Shown here: positions 10,275-12,545 of the stretch, in pieces | Layout: each line of letters opens with the position of its first letter | How positions within the stretch are numbered: the first letter of the stretch is position 1 | NCBI GenBank assembly: GCA_946186735.1 | Contig: CAMHOK010000001.1 | Location: forward strand, 446 to 64,445 | Direction of reading: 5' to 3' | Source: an uncultured Bacteroidales bacterium | GTDB lineage: Bacteria; Bacteroidota; Bacteroidia; Bacteroidales; Paludibacteraceae | Length of the DNA: 64,000 nucleotides | The notes under the pieces: generated by a model | What the model was told of the DNA's origin: nothing | Databases searched by the model: none | The model's input: only the letters and a program-made list of their open reading frames with translations | Translations under genes and position numbers: made by a program

Positions 10275-11150
10275 TTATTTGTTTGTTGTCAGTATTTTTA
10301 CGCCTGCCACTTCGGTGCTCAGCTCGCCTATGTTATCATACACTTCATCCACAGCGGTCATTATTCTTATGAAGTCGCAGTAGTCTAATCTCACGCTGTT
10401 GCCGTGGTCGTCAACAGCCCAGTCGAGGTCGAAACTGATGCCGTCGGCATCGCTGTTAGGTTTGTTGTCGGCATATCCGTAGTCGAGCACTTTCTGTGCG
10501 ATAGTGCCGTTGAACACCTGGTGGTGTGAGGCGAGACAGGTGCCGGAGACGGTGATGACGGTATCTTCTATCCACTCAGGGAAATAGGGTTGTGTATGGA
10601 AGCGGTTGCGCAGGGTGGTGTCGCTCTTGTGCCATGTCTTGGTGTAGTGGTGGCGGGTGAGCGGGTTGTTGTATTCAGAGCCTGCCAACTCATACCACTC
10701 GTCGTCGGGTAAGGCGTTGTTGTTGAGGTCTTGACTGACATACACTATGCCCGGTTCGCTCGACCCGTATTCTGCGTTCGATTGCATCAAGAAAGCGTTG
10801 CCTAAGACTTGGAAGTCGTAGGCTGAGGGGCGGTTGTTCACTTTCTGCCTGAAGCAGACGGTTACATACCCACCGAAGCCTCCTAAGGAGATGAGTGAGT
10901 TGGTGTTGAGAGCTTCTTGTGCTTTGCGGCACATGTCAGCGTGTGTGTCGCCCTGTTCGTAGGTAGGCATAATATTGACGAACTGCCCCATAGCCGGACA
11001 ATACTCTATGACCATGAGCGGTTGTTCGTCGGCGGGCTCTTCTCCGTGATGTGGCTTAGAGCAACCCACACACAAAAGGACAAGCGCTAACGCACTCGCC
11101 ATAAGACACCTAAAGAGCTTTCGTTGTGTAATAGTCAGTTGTTCTCTCAT
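10275..11150 (-). CDS. Putative cell-surface lipoprotein, first gene of the B12-riboswitch operon
   Basis: Signal/lipobox-like ALALVLLCVGCSK. Lies directly downstream of the riboswitch. No specific family recognised with certainty. Confidence 0.55.
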   Translation of the reverse strand: MREQLTITQRKLFRCLMASALALVLLCVGCSKPHHGEEPADEQPLMVIEYCPAMGQFVNIMPTYEQGDTHADMCRKAQEALNTNSLISLGGFGGYVTVCFRQKVNNRPSAYDFQVLGNAFLMQSNAEYGSSEPGIVYVSQDLNNNALPDDEWYELAGSEYNNPLTRHHYTKTWHKSDTTLRNRFHTQPYFPEWIEDTVITVSGTCLASHHQVFNGTIAQKVLDYGYADNKPNSDADGISFDLDWAVDDHGNSVRLDYCDFIRIMTAVDEVYDNIGELSTEVAGVKILTTNK

Positions 11151-11184
11151 GCTTTATGTCTCCTATCCTCGGGAGCCAATAAAA

Positions 11185-11372
11185 CTCAATGATGGCAGGT
11201 CTTCCGGCTTGTGATGCTTGCTCTTGCCTTCCCATCCGCTGTTTGGCGGACAGTGGCTTGAGACTTAGAGCAAACGTTCAATCACTTACGGCTGCGGGAC
11301 AGCGCAGGAGTCGCACCTGCTTCCCATCTTAGTCAGTCGTGCTCGATGAGACGACTGAAACCACCATATCTT
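11185..11372 (-). promoter_or_regulatory. Cobalamin (B12) riboswitch
   Basis: The minus strand reads ATGGTGG...GGGAAGCAGGTGCGACTCCTGCGCTGTCCCGCAGCCGTAAG...GCCACTGTCCGCC...AAGCCGGAAGACCTGCCATCAT. The last element is a full B12 box (plus-strand 11195-11211). P1 pairing ATGGTGG/CTGCCAT is possible. Confidence 0.85.
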
Positions 11373-11396
11373 ATCGTTAATCTTAAACGACGCGGC

Positions 11397-11404
11397 AAAG
11401 ATAC
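11397..11404 (-). promoter_or_regulatory. -7 box TATCTTTG driving the riboswitch leader
   Basis: Minus-strand TAnnTTTG match about 25 nt upstream of the aptamer. Confidence 0.5.
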
Positions 11405-11554
11405 TGCTTTTTTTTCGTTTGAGCAAAAGAAGATGAATAATTATGTTATTAGGAAAAGATTAGGGCAGCATTAGTGTTGCTCTAAGCGTTTATGCCATGT
11501 CGGAGCAAAAACCTACTTTCGCAGTGCCAAACGGGGACTAAAGACGAAAAAGAG

Positions 11555-11761
11555 ATGAAACATATTCAACTCCTTGGCGCCATTGTGATGTGCGTGTTCG
11601 GCATGGCTCTGCTTGCCACAAGTTTTTTTGTTCCTCCTATGGGGATTATTGATCCCAGTGCTCTCGCCGCTTTTGCGGAGATACTCTCATTCAGTGGTGC
11701 CATCATAGGCATCGACTATAAGTATAAGAAGAAAGCGGACTCCTCGTCCGATAATTATTAA
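11555..11761 (+). CDS. Small 2-TM membrane protein with charged C-terminal tail (holin-like architecture)
   Basis: 68 aa from the ATG at 11555. Two hydrophobic helices (LLGAIVMCVFGMALLATSFFV, ALAAFAEILSFSGAIIGI) precede a KYKKKADSSSDNY tail. The upstream part of the 89-aa ORF is probably not translated. Confidence 0.5.
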   Translation: MKHIQLLGAIVMCVFGMALLATSFFVPPMGIIDPSALAAFAEILSFSGAIIGIDYKYKKKADSSSDNY

Positions 11762-11779
11762 CCTTAAAAGCAGACAGAC

Positions 11780-12295
11780 ATGACATGCTTAACATTGCTT
11801 CGGCGCGTTTTTACATCGAAGGAGACGGTAGGCACTCTCCTTCTTGATGACACTGAGCTCTGTTCGACTATAGAGCCCCCTGTTCGTCCTACTTCTCAAC
11901 ATCCCAAGGGCGCTATACCTATGGGTTGGTATGAGATGAGTGTTACCCATTCGCCGCGTTTTTCTCGTGCTCTTCCTTTGCTTCGGTTGGTTCCGGGTTT
12001 TGAGGGTGTGAGGATACATGCGGGCAATAGCAGCCGAGATACAGCCGGCTGCGTGCTTGTGGGCGAGTTGCCGGAAAAGGCTTGGCAAGAACCGGTAGGA
12101 GAAGGTAGGTGGCGACTGTTAGAGTCAAGGAAGACAGAGACCGGAGTAACTGAACTTATTAAACAACTATTGAGAGATGGACAAGTATATCTTTATATTA
12201 CTGATATTGAGCGGCACAATGCTGAGTTGTGCAAGAGTACCCAAGAGTGTCATAGCTTCCTCAGACGCTATGCAGTCGCTGCACCACTCGGATAG
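11780..12295 (+). CDS. DUF5675-like protein (possible peptidoglycan-active enzyme)
   Basis: Pattern TVGTLLLDD..C.T.E...KGAIPMGWYEM..THSPRF...LPLLRLVPGFEGVRIHAGNSSRDTAGCVLVGE is as I recall for the phage/bacterial DUF5675 family. The H-x9-GC spacing is reminiscent of YkuD-type His/Cys active sites. Confidence 0.6.
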   Translation: MTCLTLLRRVFTSKETVGTLLLDDTELCSTIEPPVRPTSQHPKGAIPMGWYEMSVTHSPRFSRALPLLRLVPGFEGVRIHAGNSSRDTAGCVLVGELPEKAWQEPVGEGRWRLLESRKTETGVTELIKQLLRDGQVYLYITDIERHNAELCKSTQECHSFLRRYAVAAPLG

Positions 12296-12545
12296 CCTTA
12301 TGCTCTTCGACAGTGTGTTGATAGTGATTGACGGAGATAAGGTATATAAGGAGCATACGCGTACCACCTATAATCTTCGCAAGAGCGACAAAGAGCAAGC
12401 TGTCCGGACCGAGGCTGTCAGACAAGACCAGAGCCACCATGGTTGGCGATGGTGGTTAGTGATAGCAGTGATAGTGTTAGCGGTGATAGCGATAGTCGTT
12501 GTGGCACTATGGGTTATCCGTCGTCTGAGATTGTTGTACCGTTAG
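12177..12545 (+). CDS. Protein with N-terminal lipoprotein signal and C-terminal TM anchor (unimolecular-spanin-like architecture)
   Basis: N-terminus MDKYIFILLILSGTMLSC. C-terminus WRWWLVIAVIVLAVIAIVVVALWVIRRLR. Overlaps the 3' end of the DUF5675 ORF in another frame. Confidence 0.45.
   Translation: MDKYIFILLILSGTMLSCARVPKSVIASSDAMQSLHHSDSLMLFDSVLIVIDGDKVYKEHTRTTYNLRKSDKEQAVRTEAVRQDQSHHGWRWWLVIAVIVLAVIAIVVVALWVIRRLRLLYR

What the first reader, a model, noticed from the sequence alone, without database searches (positions are those of the whole stretch)
11555..12545. Orphan three-gene cassette with phage-lysis architecture (2-TM holin-like, DUF5675-like, lipoprotein-plus-C-terminal-TM spanin-like)
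Three co-directional small genes sit between the B12 leader and gldH, with no other phage genes in view:
1. A 68-aa protein with two TM helices and a highly charged C-terminal tail, which is the class II holin layout.
2. A DUF5675-like protein. Its IHAGNSSRDTAGCVLVG segment recalls the His...Gly-Cys active-site arrangement of YkuD-type peptidoglycan enzymes.
3. A 122-aa protein with an N-terminal lipoprotein signal (LSGTMLSC) and a single C-terminal TM helix. This is the topology of unimolecular spanins such as T1 gp11.

The function of DUF5675 is, to my knowledge, unestablished. The context suggests that it could be the muralytic component of a domesticated or remnant lysis module. Such a module could contribute to vesicle formation, explosive lysis, or release of a tailocin or gene-transfer agent encoded elsewhere.
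Basis: inference. Interest (0 to 1): 0.6.

Follow-up and report, generated by a model that had tools for sequence, protein, structure and literature searches.

The report
Stand-alone phage-type lysis gene trio
Three small genes between housekeeping genes of a rumen Prevotella-type bacterium are a phage-derived cell-bursting kit (membrane-hole protein, cell-wall-cutting enzyme of the untested DUF5675 family, envelope-spanning lipoprotein) that recurs as a unit across the genus; in this species it sits alone at its own site, and its present use is unknown.

Summary
The three ORFs are real and have the stated features.

- g1 (11555-11761) has two hydrophobic helices.
- g2 (11780-12295) matches Pfam DUF5675 (E 2.3e-25). 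His80 and Cys91 are invariant across 57 homologues.
- g3 (12177-12545) has a lipobox and a C-terminal membrane helix.

The trio is not a chance neighbourhood. I examined 38 DUF5675 loci from 21 of 24 genomes of the genus. A g1-like gene lies directly upstream in 33. A g3-like lipoprotein lies downstream in 25, always in the +1 frame and overlapping the DUF5675 gene in 24.

The g1 family also occurs in real phages. In lytic Bacteroides phage ARB14 it directly precedes an Amidase_2 endolysin. DUF5675 fills the endolysin slot between holin-like and spanin-pair genes in a tailed-phage contig.

In relatives the trio follows two unknown ~100-aa paralogues. It often lies near a VapE-type primase/helicase in islands where I saw no integrase. 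Here only the trio is present, at a site that no relative shares. It is intact in every conspecific contig examined.

The fold link to YkuD L,D-transpeptidases is suggestive but not significant. No activity data exist.

This scan has already reported DUF5675 lysis cassettes, an orphan trio in Flavobacteriales and Prevotella replicon islands on other DNA. This is a new variant of a known kind, of moderate interest.

The parts
11555..11761 (+). g1: 68-aa holin-like protein with two TM segments and a charged C-terminal tail
   Evidence: Hydropathy is given. It belongs to a conserved ~61-aa family found directly upstream of DUF5675 in 33 genus loci. It is 37% identical over its full length to ARB14_19, which precedes an Amidase_2 endolysin in a lytic B. 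thetaiotaomicron phage. It also hits 58 phage records, including P. gingivalis prophages. It has no significant Pfam, PHROG or NCBIfam match.
11780..12295 (+). g2: 171-aa DUF5675 protein, candidate Cys/His peptidoglycan peptidase (endolysin), with no export signal
   Evidence: Pfam DUF5675 E 2.3e-25. His80, Cys91 and Arg78 are invariant in 57 homologues. The AlphaFold2 model has pLDDT 91.5. It gives strong fold matches to viral DUF5675 proteins, including a crAss-like phage protein named 'L,D-carboxypeptidase/transpeptidase'. It has homologues in 115 phage records. Within-species polymorphism is 5 non-synonymous to 8 synonymous sites.
12177..12545 (+). g3: 122-aa unimolecular-spanin-like lipoprotein with lipobox MLSC (Cys18), a beta-prone periplasmic part without cysteine, and a C-terminal TM
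   Evidence: Topology is given. It scores 23.3 bits against an HMM of the genus family built without it. Two hundred shuffles of its periplasmic part gave mean 0.2, sd 3.6, max 12.9. In the family, 24 of 25 members keep the [AGS]-Cys column and 24 of 25 keep a C-terminal TM. Public gene calls miss it.
12177..12295 (+). 119-nt out-of-frame overlap of g2 (last beta-strand plus clade-specific C-terminal tail) with g3 (signal peptide and first mature residues)
   Evidence: The spanin-like ORF is in the +1 frame relative to DUF5675 in 25 of 25 loci. The overlap is 29-188 nt in 24 of them.
11381..11554 (.). Divergent intergenic region between the cobalamin riboswitch and g1; the promoter of the trio is unidentified
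   Evidence: Riboswitch at 11177-11380 (-). There is no perfect Bacteroidetes TAnnTTTG box on the + strand, only four one-mismatch candidates. There is no remnant of the fam0 genes that precede the trio in relatives.
12507..12545 (.). 39-nt convergent overlap of the g3 3' end with the gldH 3' end
   Evidence: ORF coordinates are. In this stretch the within-species SNPs are silent in gldH but change g3 residues.

Best explanation
The trio is a phage-derived holin / endolysin / unimolecular-spanin lysis cassette.

Predicted mechanism:
1. g1 accumulates in the inner membrane and, at a trigger point, forms holes.
2. The holes release the signal-less cytoplasmic enzyme g2. g2 is a DUF5675 protein with a His80/Cys91 active site, most likely an L,D-peptidase acting on peptidoglycan stem peptides.
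3. g3 is lipid-anchored in the outer membrane and TM-anchored in the inner membrane. Once the wall meshwork is cut, it fuses or disrupts the two membranes.

In the genus the trio is the terminal arm of a recurrent module: two unknown ~100-aa paralogues (fam0), then holin-like, DUF5675 and spanin-like genes. The module often sits beside a VapE-type primase/helicase and a DUF4248-like HTH gene, in islands where I saw no integrase.

In this species only the lysis arm is present. It is inserted between a B12-riboswitch operon and gldH at a site that no relative shares. All three frames are intact in every sampled strain.

Shown here: gene anatomy, family conservation, co-occurrence, phage homologues and their slot positions, and the conserved catalytic residues. 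Inferred: enzymatic activity, hole formation, membrane fusion, and whether the genes are expressed at all in this host.
For: - Co-occurrence and fixed order in 25 loci. Holin-like and DUF5675 genes are adjacent in 33 of 38 loci, and many of the exceptions are cut by contig ends.
- The g1 family is present in 58 phage records. In phage ARB14 the order is g1-like, Amidase_2 (E 8e-20), then an N-terminal-TM coiled-coil DUF6549 protein. In P. gingivalis prophages the g1-like gene lies after the tail genes and before a CDS annotated 'spanin'. The same holin family therefore pairs with two unrelated lysin types, which is the usual modular pattern of lysis cassettes.
- In a 48.8-kb Pam3-like phage contig, DUF5675 lies after the baseplate genes. 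It sits between a two-TM 98-aa ORF and an i-spanin-like plus o-spanin-like (lipobox VSGC) pair.
- g2 has no hydrophobic segment, so it would need a holin to reach the wall.
- His80 and Cys91 are invariant. The motifs TPxGxY / IH / TxGC align with YkuD. The PDB fold hit with the highest Foldseek probability is a YkuD L,D-transpeptidase.
- g3 has the defining u-spanin topology and no periplasmic cysteine, as described in PMC6139136.
- All conspecific metagenome contigs examined (and one search sets plus L092; at least a dozen distinct records) keep all three frames. Non-synonymous to synonymous polymorphic sites are 0:2 in g1 and 5:8 in g2, roughly pN/pS 0.2.
Against: - There are no activity data for any of the three families. 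Whether the preprint tested its DUF5675 lysin could not be established from the passages read.
- Foldseek against the PDB gave no match at E <= 1e-3. A profile search of PDB sequences found nothing relevant.
- The holin-like and spanin-like proteins match no described holin or spanin family. phrog_3268 'spanin' scored only E 0.012, over the stretch that contains the TM segment.
- The window copy lacks the upstream genes of the usual module and has no clear promoter.
- g3 is the shortest and most divergent family member. It lacks the WRDRWR and PPERYVPxFYK motifs. Its polymorphism is mostly non-synonymous, about 9:3, concentrated in the TM segment.
Confidence: 0.7

Rival explanations
1. Silent relic. 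The trio is the leftover end of a decayed island or prophage. It is no longer expressed, has no function in this host, and has simply not yet accumulated disabling mutations.
For: - The two fam0 genes, the VapE-type gene and the HTH gene that accompany the trio in relatives are missing, and no fam0 remnant or clear promoter lies upstream.
- The site is species-specific. In 24 of 24 genus genomes psp1-gldH synteny is kept without the trio.
- g3 is shortened and very divergent, and its polymorphism looks nearly neutral.
- The nearest non-conspecific DUF5675 protein is only 55% identical, so no long vertical history can be shown.
Against: - All three frames are intact in every conspecific contig examined.
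- g1 has no amino-acid polymorphism, and g2 has roughly pN/pS 0.2.
- The catalytic residues, lipobox and TM segments are intact.
- The changes in the g3 TM segment are conservative hydrophobic swaps.
Confidence: 0.3
2. Non-lytic envelope enzyme system. g2 is an L,D-transpeptidase or carboxypeptidase used for routine wall remodelling, and g1 and g3 are its membrane partners or regulators. Cell lysis is not the outcome.
For: - YkuD-like motifs.
- crAss records name the homologues 'transpeptidase'.
- DUF5675 domains also occur inside very large virion proteins (868-1251 aa), so the domain is not restricted to endolysins.
Against: - g2 has no export signal, whereas housekeeping YkuD enzymes are exported.
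- The module is scattered, multi-copy and island-borne rather than a core gene.
- Homologues of its partner g1 sit next to an amidase endolysin in lytic phages.
- The Pfam YkuD model does not hit g2.
Confidence: 0.08
3. g1 and g3 are chance ORFs beside a lone DUF5675 gene.
For: Public gene callers do not call g3. They call a 53- or 59-aa ORF on the opposite strand instead. Neither protein has a Pfam family.
Against: Both belong to families conserved at 45-63% identity (g1) and with conserved motifs and topology (g3) across 25-33 loci. g3 scores about 6 sd above shuffles against an independent HMM.
Confidence: 0.01

Closest known systems
Phage T1 lysis cassette (gene 13 holin, gene 12 endolysin, gene 11 unimolecular spanin; PMC6139136 for gp11)
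   Same: [quoted passage not shown] The spanin-like gene is last. It has no periplasmic cysteine and its periplasmic part is beta-prone.
   Different: There is no sequence relation to the T1 proteins. The enzyme is DUF5675, not a lysozyme-type endolysin. The spanin-like gene overlaps the enzyme gene out of frame by 29-188 nt. The cassette is in a bacterial chromosome with no phage around it.
DUF5675 proteins of crAss-like and other phages (annotated 'putative transpeptidase' or 'L,D-carboxypeptidase/transpeptidase'), and LysPd160, the 'C82-like' lysin of bioRxiv 10.64898/2026.04.11.717860
   Same: Same Pfam family and the same invariant His/Cys. Identity is 31-53%. Fold matches reach E 1e-13.
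   Different: The Prevotella-type clade carries a C-terminal extension of 30-40 residues that overlaps the next gene. The window copy is chromosomal.
Lysis module of lytic Bacteroides phages such as ARB14 (g1-like protein, Amidase_2, DUF6549)
   Same: The first gene belongs to the g1 family (37% identity over the full length, pairwise E 2e-12). The order is membrane protein, wall enzyme, envelope protein.
   Different: The enzyme is an N-acetylmuramoyl-L-alanine amidase. The third gene is an N-terminally anchored coiled-coil protein (i-spanin-like), not a lipoprotein with a C-terminal TM.
Host-retained lysis cassettes of tailocin clusters (R/F-pyocin holin and endolysin genes of Pseudomonas aeruginosa; from my own knowledge, not checked here)
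   Same: Phage-type lysis genes kept in a chromosome and used by the host.
   Different: Those cassettes sit beside the particle genes they serve and have known regulators. Here there are no particle genes within 10 kb, and I made no search for tailocin or gene-transfer-agent genes elsewhere in the genome.
Replicon islands of rumen Prevotella with a VirE/VapE primase-helicase and DUF5675, described as integrase-less
   Same: In at least 8 loci of relatives the same module lies 0.6-2 kb downstream of a VapE-domain protein (Pfam E 1.7e-29). In about 10 loci it lies near a DUF4248-like HTH gene.
   Different: The window has none of the replication genes. Only the three envelope genes are present.

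Membership tests
Pfam DUF5675 (PF18925) | Score above the curated gathering threshold | tested here: met
   89.1 bits against a cut-off of 26.7, E 2.3e-25, profile positions 2-91 of 114.
YkuD / MEROPS C82 L,D-transpeptidase fold | Sequence-profile membership (Pfam YkuD PF03734) | tested here: not met
   No YkuD hit at E <= 1. hhalign of the DUF5675 alignment against 16 YkuD domains gave probability 9% and E 0.0037.
YkuD / MEROPS C82 L,D-transpeptidase fold | Fold similarity to solved YkuD structures | tested here: inconclusive
   Foldseek against the PDB gave no match at E <= 1e-3. 5bmq (a YkuD L,D-transpeptidase) had the highest Foldseek probability (0.77), with E 8.9e-3 and TM 0.26. The preprint reports similarity 'with significant differences'.
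YkuD / MEROPS C82 L,D-transpeptidase fold | Catalytic His ... (S/T)-x-G-C motif conserved | tested here: met
   IH80-x9-T-x-G-C91. His80 and Cys91 are invariant in 57 sequences. The motif aligns with the IH...TxGC of YkuD domains.
Holin (class II type, functional class) | Small protein with two TM segments and a charged C-terminus | tested here: met
   68 aa, hydrophobic segments at 6-24 and 35-53, tail KYKKKADSSSDNY. The pattern is conserved in 33 family members.
Holin (class II type, functional class) | Encoded next to an endolysin in phage lysis cassettes | tested here: met
   A homologue directly precedes Amidase_2 in phage ARB14, with overlapping genes. In P. gingivalis prophages a homologue lies beside an annotated spanin.
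Holin (class II type, functional class) | Forms lethal membrane lesions that release the endolysin | not testable with these tools
   This needs induced expression and lysis curves.
Described holin families (Pfam / PHROGs) | Significant profile match | tested here: not met
   No significant Pfam, PHROG or NCBIfam hit for g1 or its relatives.
Unimolecular spanin (T1 gp11 type, PMC6139136) | N-terminal lipoprotein signal with a lipobox Cys | tested here: met
   MLSC with Cys18 after a hydrophobic stretch. An [AGS]-C column is present in 24 of 25 family members.
Unimolecular spanin (T1 gp11 type, PMC6139136) | C-terminal TM domain | tested here: met
   Residues about 94-114, hydropathy 3.5. Present in 24 of 25 family members.
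Unimolecular spanin (T1 gp11 type, PMC6139136) | Last gene of a lysis cassette, next to the endolysin | tested here: met
   Always immediately downstream of DUF5675.
Unimolecular spanin (T1 gp11 type, PMC6139136) | Sequence relation to a described u-spanin family | tested here: not met
   phrog_3268 'spanin' scored E 0.012 over residues 70-118, the stretch that contains the TM segment. Relatives give no significant PHROG hit. tblastn against phages gave only weak hits (best E 8e-5).
Unimolecular spanin (T1 gp11 type, PMC6139136) | Complements an Rz/Rz1 lysis defect | not testable with these tools
   This needs the lambda Rz-am Rz1-am complementation assay used for gp11.
Prevotella-type module fam0-fam0-holin-DUF5675-spanin | Two fam0 paralogues directly upstream of the holin-like gene | tested here: not met
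   They are absent from the window, with no remnant in 11100-11600. The only fam0-like gene of the genome is on another contig, between housekeeping genes.

The most novel reading that the evidence does not exclude
The cassette is not a relic but a host-kept programmed-autolysis device of rumen Prevotella-type bacteria. It would be triggered in a subpopulation or on phage attack, releasing vesicles, DNA or enzymes or aborting infection. The same trio with its two unknown fam0 partners would be the exit device of replicon islands that appear to lack capsid and integrase genes. That would make DUF5675, the g1 family and the g3 family a complete, undescribed Bacteroidota lysis system in which the spanin gene always overlaps the endolysin gene.
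Probability: 0.25. Interest if true: 0.7.

Novelty: new variant of a known kind. Interest (0 to 1): 0.45.

Why it matters
Lysis systems of Bacteroidota phages are poorly characterised. All three parts here belong to families with no described function.

- The comparative data give a testable assignment for each part: a g1-type holin shared with Bacteroides and Porphyromonas phages, a DUF5675 endolysin, and a u-spanin-like lipoprotein.
- They show that the holin family works with two unrelated lysin types.
- If DUF5675 is confirmed as a Cys/His L,D-peptidase, it adds a lysin class that is common in crAss-like phages, microviruses and gut or rumen bacteria.
- The stand-alone, strain-invariant copy in a housekeeping region is a simple place to ask whether bacteria keep phage lysis genes for their own use.

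Tried and rejected
- Sequence search of g2 and of its 57-sequence profile against PDB chains found nothing relevant.
- Foldseek of the g2 model against the PDB gave no significant match. The RNase E hits at the top have TM below 0.2 and are noise.
- hhalign against a YkuD alignment built from relatives' genomes gave low probability.
- Pfam, PHROGs, NCBIfam and PADLOC searches of g1, g3 and the fam0 proteins found no significant family.
- The fam0 structure model (pLDDT 77.5) had no PDB fold match, so its role stays unknown.
- There are no flanking direct repeats and no base-composition anomaly marking an insertion.
- The sigma-70 and terminator scans are uninformative for Bacteroidota.
- A programmed frameshift joining g2 to g3 was considered because the +1 frame relation is constant. 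I rejected it because every g3-like ORF has its own start codon followed at once by a signal peptide and lipobox.
- One conspecific contig (L123) seemed to lack the DUF5675 gene call. Its sequence is intact, so the difference lies in gene calling.
- One look-up failed because I cut the gldH coordinates wrongly. I corrected it in the next call.
Full report

- g1 (11555-11761, 68 aa) has two hydrophobic segments (residues 6-24 and 35-53) and a charged tail.
- g2 (11780-12295, 171 aa) matches Pfam DUF5675 at E 2.3e-25. It has no hydrophobic segment.
- g3 (12177-12545, 122 aa) has the lipobox MLSC (Cys18) and a strongly hydrophobic C-terminal helix.
- g3 starts 119 nt before the end of g2, in the +1 frame. 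Its last 39 nt overlap the end of the convergent gldH gene.

To the left lies a cobalamin riboswitch on the other strand (11177-11380, Rfam 100.9 bits). Ten kilobases on either side hold only housekeeping genes: lpxD/C/A, RNase R, gldH, PSP1, holB and folE. The assembly (2.13 Mb, 95% complete) has a single DUF5675 gene. The contigs that carry identical proteins come from sheep-rumen and similar metagenomes.

**Is the trio real?** A search of 24 other species of the genus found DUF5675 homologues in 21, often several per genome. They are 36-56% identical and lie at many different places.

I fetched the flanks of 38 such loci and searched their ORFs with HMMs built for each family.

- A g1-like gene lies directly upstream of DUF5675 in 33 loci.
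- A g3-like gene lies directly downstream in 25 loci.
- Many of the exceptions are cut by contig ends.

The g1 family is about 61 aa long and well conserved, with the motifs FGEILTFxGxxIGIDYxY.

In the g3 family, 24 of 25 members have an [AGS]-Cys column at the end of an N-terminal hydrophobic stretch, and 24 of 25 have a C-terminal TM. In all 25 loci the g3-like ORF is in the +1 frame relative to DUF5675. In 24 it overlaps DUF5675, by 29-188 nt. The overlap places the sequence-tolerant signal peptide of one protein over the last beta-strand and clade-specific tail of the other.

The window's g3 is the most divergent member, at 20-35% identity, and it lacks the WRDRWR and PPERYVPxFYK motifs. 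It still scores 23.3 bits against an HMM built without it. Two hundred shuffles of its periplasmic part reached at most 12.9 bits (mean 0.2, sd 3.6).

Similarity of g1 and of g2 to their relatives is rank-correlated across loci (rho 0.52, n = 23; the loci are not independent). This is consistent with inheritance as a unit.

**Context in relatives.** The usual unit has five genes: two paralogous ~100-aa proteins (here called fam0), then the holin-like, DUF5675 and spanin-like genes.

- A VapE-domain protein (Pfam E 1.7e-29) lies upstream in at least 8 loci, and a DUF4248-like HTH gene lies nearby in about 10.
- One locus has a divergent S24 (LexA/CI-type) peptidase gene.
- I saw no integrase or capsid genes in these flanks.
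- Six loci show a second arrangement, holin-DUF5675-fam0-fam0, without the lipoprotein.

This partly matches earlier notes of this scan on integrase-less replicon islands of rumen Prevotella. I confirmed only the gene adjacency.

fam0 has no Pfam, PHROG or NCBIfam match. Its model (pLDDT 77.5: a beta-hairpin plus three helices) has no PDB fold match. Its role is unexplained.

**The window copy.** The psp1-gldH pair is syntenic in all 24 genus genomes. None has g1, g2, g3 or the B12-regulated lipoprotein genes within 1.5 kb of gldH. No fam0 remnant lies upstream of g1. The nearest non-conspecific DUF5675 protein in a 5.8-billion-protein collection is 55% identical. The insertion is therefore specific to this species as sampled, and only the three-gene arm is present.

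All conspecific contigs examined carry the trio at the same spacing, with all three frames open. These are the ones plus the 98% variant, and they include at least a dozen distinct records.

Polymorphic sites within the species:

| Gene | Non-synonymous | Synonymous |
|---|---|---|
| g1 | 0 | 2 |
| g2 | 5 | 8 (roughly pN/pS 0.2) |
| g3 | about 9 | about 3 |

Most g3 changes are conservative hydrophobic swaps, packed into 12490-12522 within the TM segment.

The numbers are small. They argue for constraint on g1 and g2 and say little about g3.

No perfect TAnnTTTG promoter box precedes g1. Base composition and repeats show no insertion scar.

**What the parts are.**

*DUF5675 (g2).*
- His80 and Cys91 are invariant in 57 homologues, within IH-x9-T-x-G-C.
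- The AlphaFold2 model is confident (pLDDT 91.5), except for the C-terminal tail.
- Against viral predicted structures it matches DUF5675 proteins at E down to 2.5e-13. These include a crAss-like phage protein named 'L,D-carboxypeptidase/transpeptidase' and DUF5675 domains inside virion-sized proteins of 868-1251 aa.
- Against the PDB nothing reaches E 1e-3. The hit with the highest Foldseek probability is a YkuD L,D-transpeptidase (5bmq: probability 0.77, TM 0.26).
- hhalign against YkuD domains from relatives aligns the TPxGxY, IH and TxGC motifs in order, but at only 9% probability.
- A 2026 preprint classes DUF5675 as a 'C82-like' lysin domain (LysPd160) on structural grounds. I could not establish from the passages read whether its activity was measured.

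The fold link to L,D-transpeptidases is therefore a reasonable lead, not an established fact.

*Slot evidence.*
- tblastn finds g2 homologues in 115 phage records: crAss-like phages, microviruses and Vibrio phages.
- In a 48.8-kb Pam3-like phage contig, DUF5675 lies just after the baseplate genes. It sits between a two-TM 98-aa ORF and an i-spanin-like plus o-spanin-like pair.
- The g1 family is present in 58 phage records.
- In lytic B. thetaiotaomicron phage ARB14 the g1 homologue is 37% identical over its full length. It directly precedes an Amidase_2 endolysin and a membrane-anchored coiled-coil DUF6549 protein.
- In P. gingivalis prophages the g1 homologue lies after the tail genes and before an annotated spanin.

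One membrane-protein family paired with two unrelated wall enzymes is the modular pattern expected of holins and endolysins. This is the strongest argument that DUF5675 is the lysin here.

*g3.* It meets the published topological definition of a unimolecular spanin: a lipoylation signal plus a C-terminal TM, last position in the cassette, and no periplasmic cysteine (PMC6139136). It is unrelated in sequence to described spanins.

**Mechanism proposed.** g1 makes holes in the inner membrane. The signal-less enzyme g2 then reaches the wall and cuts stem peptides. g3 bridges both membranes and disrupts the outer membrane once the wall is cut. All three steps are inferred from anatomy and context, and none is shown.

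I put 0.7 on the trio being a lysis cassette by descent and design. Whether it still acts in this host is open. I give the silent-relic reading 0.3. I give a host-kept autolysis or island-exit function about 0.25. These readings concern present-day function and overlap with the descent claim.

**Novelty.** Phage-type lysis cassettes, u-spanins and the lysin prediction for DUF5675 are known or already proposed. This scan has also reported DUF5675 cassettes, an orphan trio in Flavobacteriales and the Prevotella islands on other DNA.

New here:
- the genus-wide count of the trio;
- the constant out-of-frame endolysin/spanin overlap;
- the link of the g1 family to amidase-type cassettes of Bacteroides and Porphyromonas phages;
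- a stripped-down, species-fixed copy between housekeeping genes.

I rate it a new variant of a known kind, with interest 0.45.

Noticed in passing
window 12490-12522: About 12 variable sites within 33 nt separate conspecific contigs into three haplotypes of the g3 TM segment (VIAIVVVALWVIRR, VIVLVVVTLWVVRC, VIALAVATLWVVRR). The rest of the 1.2-kb region differs by about 1%. The patch straddles the gldH stop codon, and the changes that fall inside gldH are silent in gldH.
   Followed up: partly
window 12261-12440 (-): Public gene calls for the same locus list a 53- or 59-aa ORF on the minus strand and miss g3 entirely. The conserved lipoprotein gene is therefore absent from protein databases built on those calls.
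   Followed up: yes
L026 8936-9621; L015 10785-11482; many other loci: fam0 is a pair of paralogous, basic ~100-aa proteins (consensus MAKxKPMxLIxxxSGKVCSHSDTYF...KYKTLxGYxF) with no Pfam, PHROG or NCBIfam family and no PDB fold match. The pair almost always lies next to the lysis trio in the genus. Its function is unknown.
   Followed up: partly
L060 1489-1806 (-) (G000 contig C136): The window's own genome has one solitary fam0-like gene (105 aa, E 2e-4), between an uncharacterised 253-aa ORF and a large ORF cut by the locus end (neither annotated here). It is far from the DUF5675 trio.
   Followed up: no
L072-L075, L077, L083: A second module architecture in the genus is holin-like, DUF5675, then two fam0 genes downstream, with no spanin-like lipoprotein.
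   Followed up: no
L026 7890-8726 (-): A 278-aa Peptidase_S24 (LexA/CI-type) protein is divergently transcribed from the fam0-fam0-holin-DUF5675-spanin module in one relative. This suggests damage-inducible control there.
   Followed up: no
L113 3158-4512 (crAss-like phage cr124_1): The annotated genes next to the DUF5675 gene contain many in-frame stops under table 11. The likely cause is stop-codon recoding, which has been described in some crAss-like phages; I did not test another genetic code.
   Followed up: no
window 11177-11380 (-): The cobalamin riboswitch is confirmed by Rfam (100.9 bits). It bounds the trio on the left, leaving about 170 nt of divergent intergenic DNA.
   Followed up: yes
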